Of a DNA stretch of 24,000 nucleotides, positions 3,823 through 24,000 are shown in pieces; position 1 is the stretch's first letter; the number at the start of each line of letters is the position of its first letter. Origin of the DNA: Eubacteriales bacterium mix99 (GTDB lineage: Bacteria; Bacillota; Clostridia; Caldicoprobacterales; DTU083). A program made the translations under genes and the position numbers. The notes below the pieces were generated by a model. The model worked only from the letters and a program-made list of their open reading frames with translations. It ran no database searches and had not been told where the DNA came from. The stretch spans positions 2,484,356 through 2,508,355 of the forward strand of contig CP121690.1 in assembly GCA_038396605.1 (NCBI GenBank), written 5' to 3'.

Positions 3823-4440
3823 ATGGAAAAGGAGATGCGCTTCCACGCCCTGTTTGATCGGCTGAAAAAAGTGAAAAATATTGAGTATTTTATTTTTATT
3901 CTGGCCATAGCAATAATAATGAGTCTGGCAGGTAATTTGCTTCAGCCGCAATCAAAGGGAGAGGGTGAAGAGAAAAAGGTCCGCTCCGGCGCGGCTTTGC
4001 CTGAGTCCAGCCAGGATGCGAAGAAGGAAAAAGGCAGTACGGACCGGGAAAAGCGGTTGAAGGACGTTCTGTCGGCGATTCAGGGTGCCGGAAAGGTGGA
4101 TGTCATGATTACTTACAAAACAGGCAAGGAGGTTGTTCCAGCCATGAATACCGTGGAATCCAGCACGGAAACGGAGGAAAAGGACAGCAATGGCGGTGTC
4201 CGGCGCACAACGCAAACCGATGTCAATACCCAGCCTGTCAGCATGGATTCTCCGGACGGATCCCAGCCGCTGATTTCCAGGGAAAACGAGCCGGAGGTTC
4301 AGGGAGTCATCGTTGTGGCGGAAGGTGCGGAAGATATTCAGGTCCGGATTGGACTGCAGCAGGCGGTGCAGACCCTTCTGGGGATACAGTCCGATCAGGT
4401 TGAGGTTTTTGTCATGGACGATAACGGAATGGAGGAGTGA
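3823..4440 (+). CDS. spoIIIAG: Stage III sporulation protein AG (ring-forming component)
   Basis: 205 aa. N-terminal TM, a charged linker, and a C-terminal 'GAGKVDVMITY...VQGVIVVAEGAED..VR..LQQAVQTLLGI' block typical of SpoIIIAG. RBS GGAGGG (3811-3816). Confidence 0.85.
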   Translation: MEKEMRFHALFDRLKKVKNIEYFIFILAIAIIMSLAGNLLQPQSKGEGEEKKVRSGAALPESSQDAKKEKGSTDREKRLKDVLSAIQGAGKVDVMITYKTGKEVVPAMNTVESSTETEEKDSNGGVRRTTQTDVNTQPVSMDSPDGSQPLISRENEPEVQGVIVVAEGAEDIQVRIGLQQAVQTLLGIQSDQVEVFVMDDNGMEE

Positions 4441-6482: not shown

Positions 6483-6914
6483 ATGGCAAGAAGACCGGCG
6501 AGGGAAGCTGCAATGAGATTATTATATCAGGAGATCTTTACACAGGATTTCGGGAATTGCGATCTGGGAACTTTCAGGGATATTACTTCAGATCTGGTTC
6601 TGGACAAGCGGGATATTCCTTATGTGGAAGATATCCTGCGGGGCTGTACGGATCATCAGGAGGAGATTGACCGGATCATCCGGACTCACAGTAAGGCATG
6701 GAAGTTTGAACGGATTGCAAAGGTGGATCTTTCCATTCTTCGTCTGGCTCTGTACGAAATCAATTACCGCGATGATATACCGGACAGCGTTTCGGTCAAT
6801 GAAGCGGTGGAGCTTGGAAAAAAATATGGCGGAGATCAGTCCGGATCCTTTATCAATGGCATCCTGGGTGCCTATCTTCGCCAGTGCACCCCATCCGGAA
6901 GTCCTTCGTCATGA
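6483..6914 (+). CDS. nusB: Transcription antitermination factor NusB
   Basis: 143 aa. 'RRPAREAAMRLLYQ' and 'VDLSILRLALYEI...VSVNEAVELGKKYGGDQSGSFINGILG' are conserved NusB blocks. RBS AGGAGGG upstream. Confidence 0.9.
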   Translation: MARRPAREAAMRLLYQEIFTQDFGNCDLGTFRDITSDLVLDKRDIPYVEDILRGCTDHQEEIDRIIRTHSKAWKFERIAKVDLSILRLALYEINYRDDIPDSVSVNEAVELGKKYGGDQSGSFINGILGAYLRQCTPSGSPSS

Positions 6915-7909
6915 AGTACATACTTGGCATGGATACCAGCTGTTATACGACGTCTCTGGCAGGTGTCGGGCTGGATGGGGAAGTCCTGTTCAGCAGACAG
7001 CTTCTGCTGTCTGTTCCCGGGGGGAAGAGGGGATTACAGCAATCCGAGGCTTTGTTCCAGCATGTAAAGAATATCCCGAAAGTAACGTCCGGTCTGCGGC
7101 AGGCCCTGCCGGACGGAGAGATTGCAGCTGTCTGTGCAAGTACCCGGCCCCGACGATCCGAAAGCTCCTATATGCCTGTCTTTTTGGTTGGGCATCATTT
7201 TGGCCATGCAGTTTCCGATTTGACCCATGCTCCGTTTTATAAGACCAGCCATCAGGAAAATCATATTATGGCCGGTCTTTCTTCCGCAAAGGGGCCGGAT
7301 TCCAATCGCTTCCTTGCCCTCCACCTGTCCGGCGGTACCACAGAAATGCTGGATGTGGTACGCATCCCATTCGGATTTCAGATTCAACGGGTGGGAAGAA
7401 CGCAGGATCTGCATGTCGGTCAACTGGTGGACCGAATCGGTGTGGCAATGGGCCTGCCTTTTCCGGCAGGTCCTTATTTGGAAGCAATGGCAGCATCCGG
7501 TACCGGCTCCGTTCATCTGTCCGGTTCCGTAAAGGGCCTTTGCGTCAGTTTTTCCGGGCCGGAGTCCCAGGGACAGCGTTTGCTCCGGGCAGGGGTTTCC
7601 CAACCGGAAATTGCCTGTGCTGTTTATCAGCTGTTGATCCGAACCACAGCCAATTGGATTCTGCATGCGGTGGAGCGGGGATATCCGGAGGAAGTATTGC
7701 TTGTCGGAGGGGTATCCTCCAGTTCATTGTTCCGAAATGGGCTGCGGGAGCGTCTGCTTCACCGACGCAGAAGCGTCCGCCTTTATTTTGCACAGCCGGA
7801 TTTGTCACGGGATAATGCAGTGGGAACAGCACTGCTGGGATTGCAGGCCTATCAAAAGTCAGGAGGGGTATATGAGCCATGTCATTCTTTCCGTCCATCA
7901 GCTGAATGA
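6911..7909 (+). CDS. TsaD/Kae1-like (glycoprotease/ASKHA-fold) paralog of unknown function
   Basis: ATG 6911 forms an ATGA overlap with the nusB stop. 'MKYILGMDTSCYTTS' resembles the TsaD 'ILGIETSCDET' motif. It keeps an HxxxH pair ('HQENH'), and 'LHLSGGTTE' and 'LLVGGVSSS' resemble ASKHA phosphate motifs. It diverges elsewhere from bona fide TsaD. Confidence 0.65.
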   Translation: MKYILGMDTSCYTTSLAGVGLDGEVLFSRQLLLSVPGGKRGLQQSEALFQHVKNIPKVTSGLRQALPDGEIAAVCASTRPRRSESSYMPVFLVGHHFGHAVSDLTHAPFYKTSHQENHIMAGLSSAKGPDSNRFLALHLSGGTTEMLDVVRIPFGFQIQRVGRTQDLHVGQLVDRIGVAMGLPFPAGPYLEAMAASGTGSVHLSGSVKGLCVSFSGPESQGQRLLRAGVSQPEIACAVYQLLIRTTANWILHAVERGYPEEVLLVGGVSSSSLFRNGLRERLLHRRRSVRLYFAQPDLSRDNAVGTALLGLQAYQKSGGVYEPCHSFRPSAE

Positions 7910-9119
7910 ATATGTAAGGATTCTTCTGGCAAGGGATCCCTTGCTGCGTCAGGTAAGGGTAAGAGGAGAGATTTCCAATTGCAGGTATCCTTCTTCCGGT
8001 CATATCTATTTTACATTAAAGGATGACCAGGACAGGATACGATGCGTACTGTTCCGCCAAAACGCCATTCATCTGAATTTCATGCCGGCGGACGGTATGC
8101 GGATTGTTGCAGAAGGGACGGTTTCCCTGTACAGCAGGGACGGACAGTATCAGCTTTATGTGGAGGAAATGGAACGGGAGGGCCTGGGAGATCTTCATCT
8201 TGCCTTTGAGGCAATGAAAAACAGACTTCAGAAGGAAGGATTGTTTGACCCTGCAGGGAAAAAGCCTCTTCCCCTGATGCCGAAGAAAATTGCAGTCATC
8301 ACTTCCCATACGGGAGCGGCTGTACGGGATATCCTCCGTGTTCTGCGGCACCGGAGCCGAACGGTGGATATCCTGATTCTTCCCGTTGCCGTTCAGGGAG
8401 CAAAAGCAGGCGGGCAGATTGCCAGCGCCATTGCCTATGCAAATACCAGGAAGGATATTGATCTGATCATTACCGGACGAGGGGGAGGTTCCATAGAAGA
8501 ATTGTGGGCCTTCAACGAGGAAGAGGTGGCCCGGGCCATCTTTCACTCGGAACTACCAGTTATTTCTGCTGTTGGACATGAAACGGACTTTACCATATCG
8601 GATTTTGTGGCGGATGTACGGGCAGCCACCCCATCAAATGCTGCGGAGATGGCTGTATCGGAAACATCCCGCCTTCTTTCTGTAACGGAAGGACTGAAAA
8701 AGCGTCTGATCGATGCCATGACGCGCCTTCTGTTGAATAAGCGGCATCAGCTGGATATGCTGAGAAGCCATTATGTATTCCGAACACCACGGATGCTCCT
8801 GGACCGGCAGAGCCAGCATGTGGACCTGCTGTCGCAAAGACTGACGGCTGCTATGCAATCCGATTTGCATGGAAAGAAGGAGGAGATGGGTAAAATTGTG
8901 TCTTCCCTGAATGCCTTGAGTCCGTTGAATGTGCTGTCCAGAGGATATGCCGCGGTGCTTCCGGAAAAGGGGACGGTACCGTTCCGTTCTGTCCGGGAGG
9001 TAAAGGTTCCGGATCGGTTGAAACTTCTTATGCGGGACGGCAGGATTTTTGTTACGGTGGAGGAGATACGACCGGATAAAGGCGAGCCATGGACTTCAGG
9101 GCAGAGCAGGAAGGGGTAA
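7872..9119 (+). CDS. xseA: Exodeoxyribonuclease VII large subunit
   Basis: AGGAGG (7861-7866) precedes ATG 7872. 'LSVHQLNEYVRILL...VRGEISNCRYPSSGHIYFTLKD' is the OB-fold N-terminus, and 'GRGGGSIEELWAFNEE' and 'ISAVGHETDFTISDFVAD' are also present. The track's 7665 start is an out-of-context extension. Confidence 0.9.
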   Translation: MSHVILSVHQLNEYVRILLARDPLLRQVRVRGEISNCRYPSSGHIYFTLKDDQDRIRCVLFRQNAIHLNFMPADGMRIVAEGTVSLYSRDGQYQLYVEEMEREGLGDLHLAFEAMKNRLQKEGLFDPAGKKPLPLMPKKIAVITSHTGAAVRDILRVLRHRSRTVDILILPVAVQGAKAGGQIASAIAYANTRKDIDLIITGRGGGSIEELWAFNEEEVARAIFHSELPVISAVGHETDFTISDFVADVRAATPSNAAEMAVSETSRLLSVTEGLKKRLIDAMTRLLLNKRHQLDMLRSHYVFRTPRMLLDRQSQHVDLLSQRLTAAMQSDLHGKKEEMGKIVSSLNALSPLNVLSRGYAAVLPEKGTVPFRSVREVKVPDRLKLLMRDGRIFVTVEEIRPDKGEPWTSGQSRKG

Positions 9120-18701: not shown

Positions 18702-18736
18702 AAGGGGTTGTCCGGGGGGACAATCCCTTTTTATTG
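18702..18736 (+). terminator. Rho-independent terminator after spo0A
   Basis: A 12-bp stem AAGGGGTTGTCC / GGACAATCCCTT (one G-U pair) with a GGGG loop, followed by TTTTATT. Confidence 0.8.
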
Positions 18737-18793
18737 TGCATAAATTGTAAGGAATTGTTAAGACTATGAATACTTCATTGAGGAGCGTAAGGA

Positions 18794-19912
18794 ATGATTA
18801 GTGGTACTGCCAGAAAGGACAGAAAAACAAAGAATCTGATCCATCGGTTGCATGCAGATGACATTGCGGTGATTCTTCACCGGGATCTAGATGAAGTGGC
18901 TGCCACCCATCTTGTGGAACGAAAAGTCAAGGCAGTGATCAACTGTGAGAAATCCATCAGTGGGAAATTTCCCAATCAGGGACCCAAAATTTTAAGTGAT
19001 GCAGGCATTCCTCTGGTTGATGATATGGGACAACGGATTTTTGACCAAATACAGGATAATGATTGGATTGAGTTGAAGAACCGGACACTTTTTCTGAATG
19101 AAAAGCCATTGTGCCCCGCCACAATCCTGATGAAGAAAGAAATCCAGGAAAAAATGGAAGCTGCTTCAGATAATATACAGAATGTTTTACATGATTTTAT
19201 TGACAATACCCTGCATTATGCGGAAAAAGAAAAAGATATTGTTCTGTCCCCGGTAAATATGCCTTCTGTCAACATCCCCATAAAGGGACACCATGTATTG
19301 ATCGTCACGAGAGGGAAAAACTATAAGGAAGATCTGAAGGCCATCCGATCGTACATAGATGAAGTGAAGCCTGTTCGGATCGGAGTGGACGGCGGAGCAG
19401 ATGCCCTGCTGGAATTTGGGTACCAGCCGGATATTATCGTCGGGGATATGGACAGCGTAAGTGATTCTTCCCTGTATCAGTGCAGGGAAATCATTGTTCA
19501 TGCCTATCCGGACGGTCAGGCGCCCGGCATGGAACGAATACGTAAACTGGGGCTGTCTGCCAGGGTATTTCCTTATCCCGGTACCAGTGAGGACGTTGCC
19601 CTGATTCTTGCACACGAGAACAAGGCGGAACTTATTGTTACGGTGGGCAGCCATACCAATATGATCGATTTCCTGGAGAAAGGGAGGAGAGGAATGGCCA
19701 GCACCTTTCTGGTGAGAATGAAAGTAGGTTACAATGTGATTGACGCCAAAGGGGTCAGTGAATTGTACAGAAATCAGTTCAAGCCTGCCTATCTGATGGC
19801 GTTGTTTCTGGCTGTCATGCTTCCCATCTCCATGGTGGCGAGAATGTCTCCCCTGATGCAGGAGCTTTATCAGCTGATTACGCTGCGCCTGAAAATTCTT
19901 GTGGGCTTGTAG
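18794..19912 (+). CDS. steA: SteA-like putative cytokinetic-ring protein (thiamine-pyrophosphokinase-like domain, C-terminal TM anchor)
   Basis: AGGAG lies 8 nt upstream. The TPK-like block 'GVDGGADALLEFGYQPDIIVGDMDS' is at 19382-19456. The C-terminal hydrophobic helix is 'AYLMALFLAVMLPISMVARM'. Confidence 0.75.
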   Translation: MISGTARKDRKTKNLIHRLHADDIAVILHRDLDEVAATHLVERKVKAVINCEKSISGKFPNQGPKILSDAGIPLVDDMGQRIFDQIQDNDWIELKNRTLFLNEKPLCPATILMKKEIQEKMEAASDNIQNVLHDFIDNTLHYAEKEKDIVLSPVNMPSVNIPIKGHHVLIVTRGKNYKEDLKAIRSYIDEVKPVRIGVDGGADALLEFGYQPDIIVGDMDSVSDSSLYQCREIIVHAYPDGQAPGMERIRKLGLSARVFPYPGTSEDVALILAHENKAELIVTVGSHTNMIDFLEKGRRGMASTFLVRMKVGYNVIDAKGVSELYRNQFKPAYLMALFLAVMLPISMVARMSPLMQELYQLITLRLKILVGL

Positions 19913-19924
19913 GTGAGGATCCAT

Positions 19925-20815
19925 ATGAATGCAAAGTACTACGCTTTCCTGATGGTTGGAATATTTCTTGCCATTGGACTGGGAATGATGATTGGAATGA
20001 CCCTGGAAGACAAAAATATTGTTGAAGATCAGCAGACACAAATGATTCAGCAAATTGAGGATCATTTTACCCGTCTGCGGACGGAAACGGAACAACTGCA
20101 GAAAAGTATGAGCTCCATGGAAGAACAAAACAACCAGCTTTATGAACTTTCCAGTACCCTGATGACGGAAATCGTCCGGAACAAGTTGTCCGGAGTACAG
20201 GTTGGCGTGATCAGTTTTGCCGGCGAGACGCAAAAGAAAGACATTGGCGAACTGTGTGATTTTTTGCAGCAAACCGGTGCAACGGTTCAGTCCACCATTG
20301 TCCGCTTTCCATCCTCGGACTGGGATCGGACCGCCTCTGCAGGGAAATCTCCTGAGGAGGATTCTACCATATCGGCAGTGATTGAAAGCCTGGTCTTCAC
20401 CATGCGTTTTGGCGGTGTGTCGCCTCTGATTCAGGAGGTTGAGGATTTACAGATGATTTCCCATACCGGTGGATATGATGTTCCGATTGATAAAATTCTG
20501 CTGATTGGGCAGGGAAGTTCCGGGGTGGTCTGTGACAGGCTGCTGATCCGGCATGCTTCAAAAGCCGGCATTCCTGTTATCGCTGTGGAGTTGGGGGACC
20601 GGAAGGACAGTGGAATTGGTGAATATAAGAAACTTGGGATCTCCTCTGTGGATCATGTTGAAACGATTTATGGAAAACTGGCGATGGCCTCCCTGCTGGC
20701 CGGTAACCAGGGAAATTTCGGATATGGAGCGGAATCGCAGATGCAGCTGCCAAATCCTTTGTTTCCGGAAACAGACAAAGGTTCTGTTGCAACAAATGGG
20801 GAAAAGGCACAATGA
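19925..20815 (+). CDS. MctB / 'copper transporter' (DUF3186)-family protein, SteB-like: N-terminal TM, coiled coil, soluble domain
   Basis: AGGTGAGGA RBS precedes ATG 19925; the alternative GTG 19913 abuts the steA stop. The TM helix is 'YYAFLMVGIFLAIGLGMMIGMTL', followed by a Q/E-rich coiled coil and 'KLSGVQVGVISFAG'. The architecture is the one seen in proteins encoded next to steA. Confidence 0.65.
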   Translation: MNAKYYAFLMVGIFLAIGLGMMIGMTLEDKNIVEDQQTQMIQQIEDHFTRLRTETEQLQKSMSSMEEQNNQLYELSSTLMTEIVRNKLSGVQVGVISFAGETQKKDIGELCDFLQQTGATVQSTIVRFPSSDWDRTASAGKSPEEDSTISAVIESLVFTMRFGGVSPLIQEVEDLQMISHTGGYDVPIDKILLIGQGSSGVVCDRLLIRHASKAGIPVIAVELGDRKDSGIGEYKKLGISSVDHVETIYGKLAMASLLAGNQGNFGYGAESQMQLPNPLFPETDKGSVATNGEKAQ

Positions 20816-21525
20816 GTAAAAACGGGCAGGATATCGGAGTTGTGATCCCCGCTTTCAACGAAGAACGAACAATCGATAAAACCATAAAAGCTCTGAAACA
20901 GGTCGCCTGTATTGACCGGATTCTCGTCGTGGATGACGGATCTTCCGATTCCACAGCCGAATTGGCTTCTGAGAGCGGGGCAGAAGTGCTGAAGCTTCCG
21001 CAGAACAGTGGGAAGGGTCATGCCATGAAAATGGGCTATGAGGCTCTGCCGTGCTCTGTATTGATTTTTCTGGATGCTGACCTTGGGGAAACAGCAGCGG
21101 AAGCCATCCGGTTAATCGATCCGATCTGCGGGGGAAATGCGGAAGCAACCATTTCCCGTTTTCCTATGACTCCCGGGAAAGGCGGTTTTGGTTTTGTGAA
21201 AAGGCTTTCTTCCCGGGGACTGTTCTTTCTTACCGGTCAGACCTCTTCCAGTGTTCTTTCCGGCCAACGGGGGTTTTTACGTAAAATTCTTTCAGAGGAA
21301 AGCTTCCGATATTCCGGTTTTGGGATTGAGTTTGGTATGACAGTGGATCTACTTTGGAAGAATAGAAAGATACGGGAGGTGGATGTTGCAATGGAGCATC
21401 GGACAACGGGCAGGGACTTCGGAGGATTTTTGCATCGGGCCCGTCAATTTATGGATATTGCAATAGTCATTGTGAGGAAAGCAGTGGAAAAATCCAGCGC
21501 CCTGCCAAAGGGTAATGATATATGA
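20812..21525 (+). CDS. Soluble family-2 (GT-A fold) glycosyltransferase
   Basis: ATGA overlap with the upstream stop. 'IGVVIPAFNEERTI', 'ILVVDDGSSDST', 'NSGKGHAMKMG' and the DxD motif 'FLDADL' are present. I saw no TM segment. Confidence 0.8.
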   Translation: MSKNGQDIGVVIPAFNEERTIDKTIKALKQVACIDRILVVDDGSSDSTAELASESGAEVLKLPQNSGKGHAMKMGYEALPCSVLIFLDADLGETAAEAIRLIDPICGGNAEATISRFPMTPGKGGFGFVKRLSSRGLFFLTGQTSSSVLSGQRGFLRKILSEESFRYSGFGIEFGMTVDLLWKNRKIREVDVAMEHRTTGRDFGGFLHRARQFMDIAIVIVRKAVEKSSALPKGNDI

Positions 21526-22366
21526 GAAGAATCCGATTATGAATCCATCCACAATCCTTCTTTCGATCATCGTATCCGTTGCCTCCTTTTTTCTCTTCCG
21601 CAACAGGGTTCTTGCTTTTCTGGATGAAAAGAATCTGTCCGTCCAAAACTATTCCGGCAGAAAAGTGCGGACCGGAGGAGGCCTGCTTCTTCTATTTCCG
21701 GTCTTGCTTGCTGCCGTTCCGTCATTGTTTGTCACAAGACAGGCAGACGTTGTTTTTTATATCCTGATGATTCTCTGCCTGGCATTTTGCGGACTTCTGG
21801 ATGATGTTCTGGGGGATTCCACATCCAGGGGCCTGTCCGGACATATTGGAAAATTTTTAAAAGGCGGATTGTCCACCGGATGGATCAAGGCTTTTACCGG
21901 AGGGCTGATCGGAATACTTCTGGCATGGTACCGGTATCGAAATTTTCCTCTCTTTCTTTTGGATTCCCTGAGTTTTGCATTATGTGTCAATCTGGTCAAT
22001 CTTTTTGATCTGCGTCCCGGCAGGGCCATCAAGGGACTTCTGTTTGCCCTGGTACCCGTCATGCTCTTTGCCGGCTTCCGGGAAGTGTGGTCTGTCCTGC
22101 CTGTCCTTGTCCTTCTGATGTTCTATCTGGAGGGGGAAATGGAGGAGGCCTACATGCTGGGGGATACAGGCGCCAACCTTCTGGGCGGTATTCTTGGATT
22201 TTACGAAGTAATCGGGCTGCCCGTAAAGGGTAAAATCATTCTTACAATTTTTCTGGTTGCCCTTCATGTCCTGGCTGAATTTCAGTCGTTCTCCAAATGG
22301 ATTGATGCGGTGCCGATCCTCAGGGCAATCGACAGGCTGGGCCGGAAAAAGGGAAGCGAAAGATAG
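21515..22366 (+). CDS. Short, divergent MraY/WecA-type (GT4/PNPT superfamily) polyprenyl-phosphate sugar-phosphate transferase-like membrane protein
   Basis: About 9 hydrophobic helices. 'GLLDDVLGD' carries the DD motif (21800-21805), 'NLVNLFDLRPGR' (21989-22024) sits in place of NxxNxxDGxDGL, and 'GDTGANLLGGILG' is also present. The start is uncertain: ATG 21515 or ATG 21539. Confidence 0.7.
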   Translation: MIYEKNPIMNPSTILLSIIVSVASFFLFRNRVLAFLDEKNLSVQNYSGRKVRTGGGLLLLFPVLLAAVPSLFVTRQADVVFYILMILCLAFCGLLDDVLGDSTSRGLSGHIGKFLKGGLSTGWIKAFTGGLIGILLAWYRYRNFPLFLLDSLSFALCVNLVNLFDLRPGRAIKGLLFALVPVMLFAGFREVWSVLPVLVLLMFYLEGEMEEAYMLGDTGANLLGGILGFYEVIGLPVKGKIILTIFLVALHVLAEFQSFSKWIDAVPILRAIDRLGRKKGSER

Positions 22367-22375
22367 GTGGGAAGC

Positions 22376-23467
22376 ATGCTGGAAATGCAAATGGGAAGAG
22401 CCATACAGATTCTTTCCAGGCGGAATGGAATAACGGAAGTACTGCTGGAAACAGATCATCCAGTCCGGAAAGCGATCAATTACGATCGGATGACCGGAAA
22501 GGTTTCCGTCGGGGATATGCTTTATCTCAATACGACGGCAGCTTCCCTGGGACTGGGCACCGGGGGCTTCCATTTTGTCATGCTGAATGCCTCGCATGAA
22601 AAACTCTCCATGACGTCGGGAGGACATGGAATGAAATTACGATACACCCCGTTTCAGGTCAAGGTACCATTTGAGGAAGAAGAAAACAAGGGAGTAGAAG
22701 AATGTTTCAATCGTCCGCTGAATCTGAACAACAGATTGCTGTTCTTTGGCGAGCTTCACAGTATGATACCGCCGCTTTGTGCCTGCATCCGTTACTTTTT
22801 GGGGGAAAAATGCCGGATTGCCTATCTTATGACCGATCACGGTGCACTGCCTTTGGAGTTCAGCAAAAATGTTGCCTTCCTGAGGGAAAAAAAGATGCTG
22901 GATACGGTCATAACGATCGGCAATGCCTTTGGCGGAGATCATGAATGTGTCAATATCTATACAGGCCTGCAGGCGGCGGCTTATTTGGAAGGCTGTGATA
23001 TTATCCTGGTGGCCATGGGGCCGGGAATTACCGGCACCGGGACCCGATATGGATTTTCCGGCCTGGAGATGGGCTTTTACCTGGATCTGGCATATCGCCG
23101 GGGAGGACAATGCTGTTACATTCCCCGCATCAGCTTTGCCGACAGGAGGAGCCGACATTATGGACTGAGCCACCATTCCCGGACCCTGCTTGGTGAAATT
23201 TTGCAGTCACCTATTTCTCTTGTCCTGCCGATTGTAAGGCGAAGGGAGCAGAAATATCTTCTTGAGCAACTCAATCATGCGAATCTTTCCGGCAAATATC
23301 CGATGATCCTGTCCGATGGCAGCTATATCCGCACTGCCATGGATGCTTATCAGCTTTCCGTCACCACCATGGGAAGAAATATCGAGCAGGATCCGGCTTT
23401 CTTTTATGCAATCGGCGCTGCGGCACGGACAGGATTATCTCAGTTCCATCAAAGGGACGGGTTATAA
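22376..23467 (+). CDS. DUF3866-like protein of unknown function
   Basis: AGGTGGG precedes ATG 22376; the alternative GTG 22367 abuts the upstream stop. The blocks 'LNTTAASLGLGTGGFHFV', 'HGMKLRYTPFQ', 'MGPGITGTGTRYGFSG' and 'SFADRRSRHYGLSHHS' match my recollection of DUF3866. This has not been verified by an HMM search. Confidence 0.6.
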   Translation: MLEMQMGRAIQILSRRNGITEVLLETDHPVRKAINYDRMTGKVSVGDMLYLNTTAASLGLGTGGFHFVMLNASHEKLSMTSGGHGMKLRYTPFQVKVPFEEEENKGVEECFNRPLNLNNRLLFFGELHSMIPPLCACIRYFLGEKCRIAYLMTDHGALPLEFSKNVAFLREKKMLDTVITIGNAFGGDHECVNIYTGLQAAAYLEGCDIILVAMGPGITGTGTRYGFSGLEMGFYLDLAYRRGGQCCYIPRISFADRRSRHYGLSHHSRTLLGEILQSPISLVLPIVRRREQKYLLEQLNHANLSGKYPMILSDGSYIRTAMDAYQLSVTTMGRNIEQDPAFFYAIGAAARTGLSQFHQRDGL

Positions 23468-23527
23468 ACCGGGCTTGTCTGACATAAGAATATGCTATGA
23501 GACGAAACCATTCGGGGGGTGTCGGGT

Positions 23528-24000
23528 ATGTTCAGACGATTGGGAACGGATATCATCCAGCATATCCGAAAGAACATTGCTCTGTATCTGATTATTTTAT
23601 TTGCCATGCTGACCGGCGTCCTTTCCGGCTTTTTTACAGCAGGGGCAGTGGATGCTGTACAACGATCTGCCCTGATGGATTATCTGAAAGATTTTTTTCA
23701 AAATCTGGAGCAGGAAGGCATTCATCGGAACTCTGTTTTCCTGGAATCCTTATGGCAAAATCTTCAGTGCACCTTTTTCATCTGGCTCTCCGGTCTTTTT
23801 CGCTTTGGGATCCCATTCATTTTGCTTTTTGTTGGAATGCGCAGTTTTGTGATCGGCTTTACCTCAGGATTCCTGGTCGGTCAATATCATTTTGGAGGAT
23901 TCCTGTTTACCCTGCTCTGCATCCTTCCGCAAACCCTGCTCTATATTCTGTGTGTTTTTGGTATTGGAGTCCTGGCATTGGAGCATTCCGTTGACAAGCT
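23528..24000 (+). CDS. spoIIM: Stage II sporulation protein M (SpoIIM), 3' end beyond the window; not in the supplied ORF track
   Basis: My own translation from ATG 23528 reads 'MFRRLGTDIIQHIRKNIALYLIILFAMLTGVLSGFFTAGAV...LWQNLQCTFFIWLSGLFRFGIPFILLFVGMRSFVIGFTSGFLVGQ...LLCILPQTLLYILCVFGIGVLALE'. The frame stays open for 157 codons to the window end. An in-frame TGA at 23498-23500 bounds the 5' end. A G-rich RBS is at 23514-23520. The TM pattern is like SpoIIM. Confidence 0.8.
   Translation, partial: MFRRLGTDIIQHIRKNIALYLIILFAMLTGVLSGFFTAGAVDAVQRSALMDYLKDFFQNLEQEGIHRNSVFLESLWQNLQCTFFIWLSGLFRFGIPFILLFVGMRSFVIGFTSGFLVGQYHFGGFLFTLLCILPQTLLYILCVFGIGVLALEHSVDK

What the first reader, a model, noticed from the sequence alone, without database searches (positions are those of the whole stretch)
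18794..23467. Uncharacterised five-gene operon (SteA-like, MctB/SteB-like, GT2, divergent PNPT, DUF3866) between spo0A and spoIIM
Seen directly: a strong terminator (18702-18736) closes spo0A, and five + strand genes follow with essentially no intergenic space.
- steA stops at 19912 and the next gene starts at 19913 or 19925.
- There is an ATGA overlap at 20812-20815.
- The next junction is an 11-nt overlap or a 13-nt gap at 21515/21539.
- The fourth gene stops at 22366 and the fifth starts at 22367 or 22376.
This is the signature of one translationally coupled unit.

The parts are a membrane-tethered protein with a pyrophosphokinase fold, a membrane-anchored coiled-coil protein, a soluble GT-A glycosyltransferase, a polytopic protein carrying MraY/WecA catalytic motifs, and a conserved protein with no assigned activity.

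Inference: the set looks like a compact pathway. It would prime a polyprenyl-phosphate carrier, add a further sugar or modification, and couple the product to a septal scaffold. That would be a lipid-linked glycoconjugate system acting at the division or engulfment septum.

The operon lies between the sporulation master regulator and an engulfment gene. As far as I recall, B. subtilis has no counterpart at the equivalent position after spo0A. I know of no described function for this gene set as a whole.
Basis: partly seen in the sequence, partly recalled or inferred. Interest (0 to 1): 0.85.

Follow-up and report, generated by a model that had tools for sequence, protein, structure and literature searches.

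The report
SteAB operon with lipid-sugar enzymes
This is a real, tightly packed five-gene operon after spo0A that joins the SteA-SteB cell-separation complex to two enzymes that probably build a lipid-linked sugar, and it appears to match a Clostridioides difficile gene cluster that is essential but still unexplained.

Summary

- Gene 1 is SteA (NCBIfam equivalog, 508 bits).
- Gene 2 is a true SteB/MctB homologue.
- Gene 3 is a soluble GT2 of the DPMS/ArnC/GtrB/GpgS branch.
- Gene 4 is a short, divergent PNPT. It has the MraY/DPAGT1 fold and keeps the catalytic aspartates, but other motifs are changed.
- Gene 5 is DUF3866. No informative fold relative was found.

The set is not unknown. By order, size and annotation it matches C. 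difficile cdr20291_1053-1057, which is essential. Knock-down there gives short, swollen, chaining cells, and no function is assigned. SteAB after spo0A in Clostridia has also been noted in print.

New here:
- The conserved unit is four genes, steA-(steB)-GT2-PNPT. It also occurs in Armatimonadota and in loci without spo0A.
- DUF3866 is separable and travels with NUDIX, spoIIM and xerD.
- SteA in these clusters keeps intact thiamine-pyrophosphokinase motifs. These motifs are decayed in the two solved actinobacterial SteA proteins.

The most likely role is vegetative envelope growth and cell separation, not sporulation. The mechanism is inferred. I class it as a new variant of a known kind.

The parts
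18702..18736 (+). Intrinsic terminator of spo0A; upstream boundary of the operon
   Evidence: 12-bp stem with 6 GC pairs and a 4-nt loop, followed by a T-run. Folds at -23.3 kcal/mol, z = -4.9.
18780..18785 (+). Ribosome-binding site GAGGAG of steA
   Evidence: Read directly from the sequence. It lies 8 nt before ATG 18794. The consensus scan found no sigma-70-like promoter in the 57-nt gap.
18794..19912 (+). steA: cytoplasmic thiamine-pyrophosphokinase-like protein with one C-terminal membrane helix (residues 329-355)
   Evidence: NCBIfam NF040608 division_SteA scores 508 bits against a cut-off of 150. Pfam finds TPK_catalytic and SteA-like_C. MtSteA 9HMY matches at 224 bits, E = 4e-65. Hydropathy supports the single helix. 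The motifs VDGGAD, GDMDSVSD and GTSED are invariant in 156 relatives.
19913..20815 (+). steB (MctB family): N-terminal membrane helix, coiled coil and an extracytoplasmic core. The likely start is ATG 19925.
   Evidence: Pfam MctB scores 79.9 bits but covers only the N-terminal part. A profile of 36 orthologues hits MtSteB/MctB 9m9z and 9hle at E = 4e-11, at both ends of the protein, and CgSteB 8au6. Hydropathy supports the helix.
20812..21525 (+). Soluble GT-A family 2 glycosyltransferase of the DPMS/ArnC/GtrB/GpgS branch; no membrane helix
   Evidence: Pfam Glycos_transf_2 scores 71.6 bits. The best NCBIfam hits are AglJ (104), GpgS (75) and PpgS (55), all below their cut-offs. The family profile matches DPMS 5mlz best (82.7 bits), then ArnC, GpgS and GtrB. 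D88-x-D90 is invariant.
21515..22366 (+). Short polytopic PNPT-superfamily protein. The alternative start 21539 is favoured by homologue alignment.
   Evidence: The window protein itself has no Pfam or NCBIfam hit, but 21 of 35 relatives match PF00953. The family profile hits MraY 8g01 at E = 2.5e-5. The AF2 model has pLDDT 93.5. The top 22 Foldseek PDB hits are all DPAGT1 or MraY, TM 0.5-0.66, followed by a sharp drop. Invariant residues include D96, D97, N159, N162, D165, RPGR and D217.
22367..23467 (+). DUF3866 protein: cytoplasmic, with an N-terminal small beta-barrel and a C-terminal alpha/beta domain. The likely start is ATG 22376.
   Evidence: Pfam PF12982 scores 373 bits. The AF2 model has pLDDT 89. 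PDB matches are weak and resemble SIMIBI NTPases, TM about 0.3. No PDB sequence hit and no second Pfam family were found. There are 1862 family representatives at 50% clustering.
23528..24000 (+). spoIIM, cut off by the window end; downstream neighbour, possibly read through from the operon
   Evidence: Pfam SpoIIM scores 65 bits. The 60-nt gap holds no terminator-like fold.

Best explanation
The five genes form one co-transcribed, translationally coupled operon that appears to be the counterpart of C. difficile cdr20291_1053-1057.

Its conserved core is four genes. SteA is cytoplasmic, membrane-tethered and has a nucleotide-binding thiamine-pyrophosphokinase fold. SteB is its extracytoplasmic coiled-coil partner. 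In Corynebacterium and Mycobacterium these two form a septal transmembrane complex that positions and activates a peptidoglycan endopeptidase. Here they are encoded with two enzymes that use nucleotide-activated sugars at the membrane: a short PNPT-type phosphotransferase and a DPMS/ArnC-like GT2.

The most likely role is in vegetative envelope growth and daughter-cell separation. The enzyme pair would make or modify a polyprenyl-phosphate-linked sugar. The SteAB complex would couple this chemistry to septal wall remodelling, either by using the product or by sensing the nucleotide or sugar state through the SteA pocket.

DUF3866 is co-expressed here but is an evolutionarily separable add-on of unknown activity.

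Shown: the gene identities, the operon architecture and the co-conservation. Taken from the literature: the essentiality of the matching C. difficile cluster. Inferred: lipid-linked sugar synthesis, coupling to SteAB and the septal site of action.
For: Parts:
- SteA passes the NCBIfam equivalog cut-off, 508 against 150 bits, and matches MtSteA at 224 bits.
- The SteB family profile hits solved SteB structures at E = 4e-11.
- Gene 4 has the PNPT fold and keeps the catalytic aspartates.
- The GT2 is closest to DPMS, ArnC, GpgS and GtrB, enzymes that put one sugar on a phosphate-bearing acceptor.

Operon:
- Overlaps and stop-spanning ribosome-binding sites occur at every junction.
- Median junctions across loci are 2-12 nt.

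Co-conservation:
- 38 of 46 non-redundant DUF3866-anchored loci carry steA-(steB)-GT2-PNPT upstream on the same strand.
- All six loci reached through distant gene 4 relatives have steA directly upstream.
- The four-gene core occurs in two Armatimonadota genomes in unrelated neighbourhoods (L089, L093). Inherited Bacillota synteny cannot explain this.

Phenotype: cdr20291_1053-1057 is essential, and knock-down gives chaining plus short, swollen, phase-bright cells (PMC12548448). Chaining is the SteAB-type separation defect.

SteA pocket: CgSteA is stabilised by GDP or UDP, the leaving groups of glycosyltransferases (PMC12977500).
Against: - No biochemical product is known. The GT2 is equally compatible with a soluble phosphorylated acceptor (GpgS scores 71 bits against 83 for DPMS), and it has no membrane helix.
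- Gene 4 lacks the second aspartate of the NxxNxxDGxDG motif (DLRPGR instead), and no counterpart of the His-rich loop E motif of MraY/WecA was seen in the alignment. Its donor may therefore not be a UDP-sugar.
- CRISPRi in C. difficile is polar, so the phenotype cannot be assigned to single genes.
- Actinobacterial SteAB works without adjacent GT2 or PNPT genes.
- Some clusters lack steB (L078, L086, L091), and one lacks the GT2 (L092).
- Orthology with the C. difficile genes rests on order, annotation and length only. No sequence comparison could be run.
- No coiled-coil NlpC/P60 partner was looked for.
Confidence: 0.5

Rival explanations
1. SteA is itself an enzyme in these clusters. SteA (a membrane-tethered TPK/MptE-like phospho- or pyrophosphotransferase), the PNPT-like protein and the GT2 would form a three-enzyme pathway for an unusual lipid-linked or phosphorylated glycan, with SteB as an optional outer partner. 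On this view the actinobacterial SteAB is a catalytically decayed, purely regulatory remnant.
For: - VDGGAD, GDMDS(V)SD and GTSED are invariant in 38 Bacillota and 118 Armatimonadota SteA proteins. They match the catalytic GDFDSISD region of a solved thiamine pyrophosphokinase, 3l8m.
- MtSteA has GTGAD, GDPDQ and GSATD at these positions. CgSteA has DGAAD, GNPTG and NSSTD.
- SteA is linked to GT2-PNPT more constantly than SteB is. Clusters L078, L086 and L091 lack steB.
- The uridine-pocket motif of gene 4 is altered, so an unusual donor is conceivable.
Against: - Only two actinobacterial sequences were compared.
- Motif conservation may reflect ligand binding rather than catalysis.
- No pyrophosphokinase activity has been reported for any SteA.
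- No substrate can be proposed from sequence.
Confidence: 0.18
2. The genes are functionally independent housekeeping genes held together by ancient synteny and convenient co-transcription. SteAB controls a wall hydrolase, and GT2, PNPT and DUF3866 serve unrelated envelope or nucleotide functions.
For: - The whole region is an old syntenic block. The window shows spoIIIA...nusB-xseA-ispA-dxs-nadK-argR-recN-spoIVB-spo0A.
- DUF3866 occurs alone in 8 of 46 loci. It is usually followed by NUDIX, spoIIM and xerD.
- An M20 peptidase, with or without pyrG, separates PNPT from DUF3866 in 7 loci.
- Actinobacteria have steAB without the enzymes.
Against: - For the four-gene core, the same order with overlapping junctions appears in Armatimonadota in two different neighbourhoods and in Bacillota contigs away from spo0A.
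- Every gene 4 relative that was looked up sits next to steA.
Confidence: 0.17
3. One reading: a sporulation or engulfment-specific glycoconjugate system, placed between spo0A and spoIIM because it acts at the asymmetric or engulfing septum.
For: - It lies between spo0A and spoIIM in the window and in most Clostridia loci.
- No terminator precedes spoIIM.
- PMC12977500 also speculates about a sporulation role.
Against: - The matching C. difficile cluster is essential for vegetative growth.
- The cluster is present where recN abuts steA with no spoIVB or spo0A (L042, L058, L059, L069).
- It is present in Armatimonadota.
- Unrelated genes are inserted between spo0A and steA in L024 and L027.
- A strong terminator isolates it from spo0A.
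Confidence: 0.07
4. The genes belong to an already characterised polymer pathway: a wall teichoic acid linkage unit, the C. difficile-type lipoteichoic acid with GlcNAc-glycerate repeats (through a GpgS-like step), capsule, or S-layer glycan.
For: - The GT2 hits GpgS at 49-71 bits and AglJ at 104 bits.
- C. difficile lipoteichoic acid contains glyceric acid (abstract of PMC13558421).
- A PNPT plus a GT2 is the classical pair for starting a linkage unit (general knowledge).
Against: - No NCBIfam equivalog reaches its cut-off for any of genes 3-5.
- The cluster has no flippase, polymerase, ligase or GT-C gene.
- It spans Clostridia, Halanaerobium, Carboxydocella and Armatimonadota, which is far wider than any one polymer type.
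- No paper links the cluster to a pathway.
Confidence: 0.08

Closest known systems
C. difficile R20291 cdr20291_1053-1057 (essential cluster not assigned to any pathway; J Bacteriol 2025, PMC12548448)
   Same: The same five annotations in the same order with near-identical sizes: 373/291/230/274/355 aa there against 372/300/237/283/366 aa here. The DUF3866 annotation matches. The authors did not recognise the first two genes as SteA and SteB.
   Different: The organism differs. The window matches a Clostridiales MAG, with gene 4 100% identical to NCBI protein DDW86_02325. Orthology is inferred from order, size and annotation, not from a sequence comparison. That the C. difficile cluster directly follows spo0A is from my memory.
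SteA-SteB (Rv1697-Rv1698/MctB; Cg1603-Cg1604) septal complex that activates RipA/RipC in Mycobacteriales
   Same: SteA passes the equivalog model and aligns with MtSteA over residues 3-326. SteB is homologous at both ends. The membrane topology is the same: SteA has a C-terminal helix and SteB an N-terminal one. The genes are adjacent, and steA follows recN once spoIVB and spo0A are set aside.
   Different: Here two glycan-type enzymes and DUF3866 follow in the same operon. The SteA TPK-like motifs are intact here but decayed in MtSteA and CgSteA. SteB is very divergent (22-36% identity even among Bacillota) and sometimes absent. The hydrolase partner is unknown. The C. difficile counterpart is essential, whereas C. 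glutamicum steAB mutants were obtained.
PNPT superfamily (MraY, WecA/TagO, DPAGT1/AglH)
   Same: The predicted fold matches (TM 0.5-0.66 to DPAGT1 and MraY). The DD pair on the third membrane helix, the NxxNxxD motif and the GDxG aspartate are all conserved.
   Different: It is only about 275 aa, with about nine long helices. The second aspartate of the DGxDG motif is replaced by an invariant DLRPGR. No His-rich loop E motif was seen. The window copy falls below the Pfam threshold. The substrate is unknown.
Polyprenyl-phosphate GT2 enzymes (DPMS/Dpm1, ArnC, GtrB, AglJ) and GpgS
   Same: It has a GT-A fold, the PxxNE and DxD motifs, and its best profile matches are to exactly this branch.
   Different: It has no membrane helices, only a C-terminal amphipathic stretch. 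It scores below every equivalog cut-off. The acceptor, polyprenyl phosphate or a small phosphorylated molecule, is undetermined.

Membership tests
SteA (NCBIfam NF040608, putative cytokinetic ring protein) | Whole-protein score above the curated equivalog cut-off | tested here: met
   508.2 bits against a cut-off of 150, covering model positions 1-368 of 369.
SteA (NCBIfam NF040608, putative cytokinetic ring protein) | Cytoplasmic TPK-like core followed by one C-terminal membrane helix (SteA-like_C) | tested here: met
   Pfam TPK_catalytic and SteA-like_C. One hydrophobic segment at residues 329-355. Aligns with the MtSteA core 9HMY.
SteA (NCBIfam NF040608, putative cytokinetic ring protein) | Septal localisation and a requirement for cell separation | not testable with these tools
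   The only indirect evidence is chaining after polar knock-down of the matching C. difficile cluster.
SteB / MctB (PF11382) | Homology to the solved SteB core, not just to the coiled coil | tested here: met
   The single sequence gives Pfam 79.9 bits but covers only profile positions 3-117 of 306 and has no PDB hit. A profile of 36 orthologues hits 9m9z and 9hle at E = 4e-11 in two stretches (45-147 and 248-286) and 8au6 at 2e-9.
SteB / MctB (PF11382) | Binds the coiled coil of an NlpC/P60 hydrolase (RipA) | not testable with these tools
   No partner hydrolase was identified. The RipA-contact residues were not mapped.
PNPT superfamily (PF00953; MraY/WecA/DPAGT1) | Pfam model match | tested here: inconclusive
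   The window protein has no hit even at E <= 1. 21 of 35 relatives match PF00953, best E = 4.6e-9. The family profile hits MraY 8g01 at E = 2.5e-5.
PNPT superfamily (PF00953; MraY/WecA/DPAGT1) | Polytopic PNPT fold | tested here: met
   AF2 pLDDT 93.5. Foldseek ranks 1-22 are all DPAGT1 or MraY, probability 1.00, TM 0.49-0.66. The next hit has E > 1.
PNPT superfamily (PF00953; MraY/WecA/DPAGT1) | Catalytic aspartates (the DD pair and the D of GDxG) | tested here: met
   D96, D97 and D217 are invariant in 35 sequences and align with the MraY DDxxK and MGDxGS motifs.
PNPT superfamily (PF00953; MraY/WecA/DPAGT1) | Complete NxxNxxDGxDGL motif and the His-rich loop E motif of the MraY/WecA subfamilies | tested here: not met
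   The motif reads N159-x-x-N162-x-x-D165-L-R-P-G-R with invariant RPGR. No HHH or HIHH counterpart is visible in the alignment. It is therefore not a member of the MraY or WecA subfamilies.
Named polyprenyl-phosphate or phosphoglycerate GT2 equivalogs (AglJ, GpgS, PpgS, ArnC, DPMS) | Score above the curated equivalog cut-off | tested here: not met
   AglJ 104 against 325, GpgS 75 against 262, PpgS 55 against 370, ArnC 39 against 529. It belongs to the branch but to none of the named families.
GT2 (PF00535) | Pfam match and a DxD motif | tested here: met
   71.6 bits against a cut-off of 23.3. D88 and D90 are invariant in 43 orthologues.
DUF3866 (PF12982) | Pfam match | tested here: met
   373 bits, covering profile positions 1-318 of 318.
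Sporulation-specific gene set | Restricted to spore formers and dispensable for vegetative growth | tested here: not met
   The cluster is present with no spoIVB or spo0A beside it and in Armatimonadota. The matching C. difficile cluster is essential vegetatively.

The most novel reading that the evidence does not exclude
SteA-(SteB)-GT2-PNPT is an ancient module shared by Bacillota and Armatimonadota. In it SteA is a catalytically active, membrane-tethered TPK-like phosphotransferase. It works with a non-canonical PNPT and a DPMS-like GT2 to make a previously unknown lipid-linked or phosphorylated sugar that licenses septal peptidoglycan cleavage. The well-studied actinobacterial SteAB would then be a degenerate, enzyme-less remnant of this pathway.
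Probability: 0.18. Interest if true: 0.85.

Novelty: new variant of a known kind. Interest (0 to 1): 0.6.

Why it matters
The apparently matching cluster in C. difficile is essential, absent from B. subtilis as an essential set, and named by its discoverers as a high-value target class for narrow-spectrum antibiotics. Nobody knows what it does.

Two points make the problem experimentally tractable. First, its first two genes are SteA and SteB. Second, the conserved unit is SteA-(SteB)-GT2-PNPT across at least two phyla, which ties an unexplained essential operon to a mechanistically studied cell-separation system. The specific handles are the SteA acidic motifs, the PNPT donor and the identity of the lipid-linked product.

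It also bears on the open question left by the SteAB structural work, namely which cytoplasmic ligand or signal drives the complex. In these bacteria, enzymes that consume UDP- or GDP-sugars are encoded in the same operon.

Tried and rejected
1. Genome scan. I spent the single genome-contig scan on one protein rather than an alignment, so it returned only 6 loci. The metagenome scan with a profile and the exact-protein look-ups made up for this. I could not survey Actinobacteria for GT2 or PNPT genes near steAB.

3. Lipoteichoic acid idea. I considered whether the GpgS-like GT2 makes GlcNAc-glycerate for the C. difficile-type lipoteichoic acid. I rejected this as the general explanation. The family profile prefers DPMS, the R185 and T187 positions of the GpgS GGRVT stretch, which I recall as substrate-binding, align to F and K in the window protein, and the cluster occurs far outside organisms known to have that polymer.

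4. Literature. Searches for locus tags and SteA in Clostridia found no functional study. No supplementary tables were held.

5. Genes between spo0A and steA in low-GC loci. These are unrelated: a nucleotidyltransferase-like ORF in L027 and an opposite-strand ORF in L024, judged by eye only.

6. Fusions. None was found among 150 DUF3866 representatives except one DUF3866-NUDIX protein. No fusions appeared among gene 4 relatives.

Full report
**Observation.**
All four junctions are as described.
- ATG 19925 and ATG 22376 are each preceded by a Shine-Dalgarno-like sequence (GGTGAGGA and AGGTGGGA) that spans the stop codon of the gene before.
- Genes 2 and 3 share an ATGA overlap.
- Genes 3 and 4 overlap by 11 nt, or are 13 nt apart if ATG 21539 is used. 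Homologue alignment favours 21539.

Upstream, spo0A (TIGR02875, 420 bits) ends in a hairpin of -23.3 kcal/mol, z = -4.9, followed by a T-run. Downstream, spoIIM starts at 23528, and the 60-nt gap before it has no terminator-like fold. The rest of the window is the classical Bacillota block: spoIIIAA-AH, asp23, nusB, xseA, ispA, dxs, ftsJ/tlyA, nadK, argR, recN, spoIVB, spo0A.

**The five proteins.**
1. Gene 1 is SteA. NCBIfam equivalog NF040608 scores 508 bits against a cut-off of 150. The solved M. tuberculosis SteA core (9HMY) matches at 224 bits. There is one C-terminal membrane helix.
2. Gene 2 alone matches only the N-terminal third of Pfam MctB and no PDB sequence. A profile of 36 orthologues hits MtSteB/MctB (9m9z, 9hle) at E = 4e-11 in two stretches, one near each end, and also CgSteB (8au6). 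It is therefore a genuine but very divergent SteB.
3. Gene 3 is a 237-aa GT2 with no membrane helix. The profile of 43 orthologues matches archaeal dolichol-phosphate mannose synthase best (82.7 bits). ArnC, GpgS and GtrB follow at about 70 bits. Every NCBIfam equivalog is far below its cut-off.
4. Gene 4 has no Pfam or NCBIfam hit of its own. However, 21 of 35 relatives match Glycos_transf_4, and the family profile finds MraY at E = 2.5e-5. A confident model (pLDDT 93.5) matches only DPAGT1 and MraY structures in its top 22 hits, TM up to 0.66, and then nothing. The DD pair, NxxNxxD and the GDxG aspartate are invariant. The second aspartate of DGxDG is replaced by an invariant RPGR, and no His-rich loop E motif is seen.
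5. Gene 5 is DUF3866 (373 bits). Its model (pLDDT 89) has a small N-terminal beta-barrel and an alpha/beta domain. It resembles SIMIBI NTPases only weakly, and there is no Walker A motif. No further homology was found.

**What is already known.**
A CRISPRi and Tn-seq study of C. difficile lists cdr20291_1053-1057 as [quoted passage not shown].
- CRISPRi gives strong viability defects.
- Knock-down gives short, swollen, phase-bright, chaining cells.
- No pathway is assigned (PMC12157513 and PMC12548448).

The sizes and order match the window set. The 2026 structural paper on M. tuberculosis SteAB states that steA-steB also occur in a restricted subset of Bacillota immediately downstream of spo0A, and it speculates about sporulation (PMC12977500). 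Neither paper connects the two facts or discusses the enzymes. I found no functional study.

**Co-conservation.**
I collected 94 loci.
- Among 46 non-redundant loci anchored on DUF3866 with enough upstream DNA, 38 carry steA-(steB)-GT2-PNPT upstream on the same strand. In 31 of these the cluster is directly adjacent to DUF3866. In the other 7 an M20-type peptidase, with or without pyrG, is inserted.
- Median intergenic distances are 11, 11.5, 2 and 4 nt.
- Eight loci have DUF3866 without the others (confirmed with HMMs).
- Loci reached through distant gene 4 relatives always have steA next door but no DUF3866: Anoxybacter fermentans, Carboxydocella, two other Bacillota contigs, and Halanaerobium. 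In Halanaerobium a ParA/CbiA-like protein stands where the GT2 is expected.
- One such locus (L089) lies between greA and cytochrome c genes. Its SteA groups with proteins named Chthonomonadales or Armatimonadetes. A second Chthonomonadaceae genome has the same four genes in a different neighbourhood. A third has steA only.
- Three clusters lack steB altogether (L078, L086, L091).

The unit conserved across contexts is therefore steA-(steB)-GT2-PNPT. DUF3866 is an add-on seen here only in Bacillota loci.

**Position is inherited, not a sporulation signal.**
- In four non-redundant loci recN is followed directly by steA, with no spoIVB or spo0A.
- Unrelated genes separate spo0A from steA in other loci.
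- DUF3866 is usually followed by a NUDIX gene (47 of 86 loci), then spoIIM and xerD.
- As I recall the M. tuberculosis order (recN, steA, steB, pyrG, NUDIX, xerD), the whole stretch looks like old shared synteny into which spoIVB-spo0A, GT2-PNPT, DUF3866 and spoIIM are variously inserted.
- Together with vegetative essentiality in C. difficile, this argues against an engulfment-specific role.

**A new lead on SteA.**
In 38 Bacillota and 118 Armatimonadota SteA proteins the motifs VDGGAD, GDMDS(V)SD and GTSED are invariant. The middle one equals the GDFDSISD catalytic region of a solved thiamine pyrophosphokinase. MtSteA has GTGAD, GDPDQ and GSATD at these positions. CgSteA has DGAAD, GNPTG and NSSTD. 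The authors of the structures found that CgSteA is stabilised by GDP or UDP and proposed a sensing role. SteA proteins encoded with GT2-PNPT thus keep a complete acidic site that the two studied actinobacterial proteins have lost. This is compatible with catalysis, but two sequences are a thin comparison.

**Most likely mechanism.**
- Shown: the five genes are one translationally coupled unit.
- Shown: SteA and SteB are homologues of a septal transmembrane complex that activates a wall hydrolase.
- Shown: genes 3 and 4 belong to enzyme classes that transfer a sugar or a sugar-phosphate from a nucleotide donor to a phosphate-bearing, usually polyprenyl, acceptor at the inner face of the membrane.
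- From the literature: the apparently matching C. difficile cluster is essential.
- Inferred: the enzyme pair makes or modifies a lipid-linked sugar, and SteAB couples this to septal wall remodelling and cell separation. The chaining and swelling seen in C. difficile fits this.
- Unknown: the donor, the acceptor, the product, the hydrolase partner and the activity of DUF3866.

**Verdict.**
The finding is not new as a gene set, but its function is open and medically relevant. This analysis narrows the set to a four-gene core found in at least two phyla and gives testable handles. I class it as a new variant of a known kind (the SteAB system) with interest 0.6.

Noticed in passing
L021 8133-8618, L063 8131-8595 and about 45 other loci; protein P0361: A NUDIX hydrolase gene follows DUF3866 within about 50-300 nt in 47 of 86 loci, including loci where DUF3866 stands alone. 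One 562-aa protein is a DUF3866-NUDIX fusion. The window lacks this gene; spoIIM follows DUF3866 directly.
   Followed up: partly
L052 5553-6695, L055 3253-6079, L076 4192-7004; also L046, L065, L079, L085: An M20-type peptidase of about 380 aa, sometimes with pyrG (CTP synthase), lies between the PNPT gene and DUF3866. The peptidase also precedes DUF3866 in loci where DUF3866 stands alone. Identification is by sequence inspection and tblastn only.
   Followed up: partly
L089 4231-7834; L093 6001-9608; L094 6001-7134: The four-gene core steA-steB-GT2-PNPT occurs in Armatimonadota (Chthonomonadales) in two different neighbourhoods. A third Armatimonadota contig has steA followed by a 128-aa ORF and no enzymes. 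The published survey mentions SteAB only in Actinobacteria and some Bacillota.
   Followed up: partly
L078, L086, L091 (no steB); L092 4477-6056: Variant clusters exist. In three, steA is followed directly by GT2-PNPT with no steB. In Halanaerobium the order is steA-steB-PNPT followed by a 223-aa protein with weak ParA/CbiA similarity in place of the GT2.
   Followed up: partly
window 19388-19408 (VDGGAD), 19442-19465 (GDMDSVSD), 19580-19594 (GTSED): These SteA motifs are invariant in 156 Bacillota and Armatimonadota proteins and match thiamine pyrophosphokinase catalytic motifs. They are altered in the solved MtSteA (9HMY) and CgSteA (9HMZ).
   Followed up: partly
window 23468-23527: No terminator-like structure lies between the DUF3866 stop and the spoIIM start, so spoIIM may be read through from the operon in addition to any promoter of its own.
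   Followed up: partly
window 6884-7909 and 7665-9119: A 341-aa GTG ORF with a weak TsaD-family hit (64 bits) overlaps the start of the xseA ORF as listed. The true xseA start is probably further downstream.
   Followed up: no
window 3823-4440: A 205-aa ORF between spoIIIAF and spoIIIAH has no Pfam hit at E <= 0.001. By position it is presumably spoIIIAG.
   Followed up: no
L027 2163-3359; L024 2337-3050 (- strand): In low-GC relatives, unrelated genes sit between spo0A and steA: a 398-aa nucleotidyltransferase-like ORF and a 237-aa opposite-strand ORF. The spo0A-steA adjacency is therefore not strict. The ORFs were judged by eye only.
   Followed up: partly
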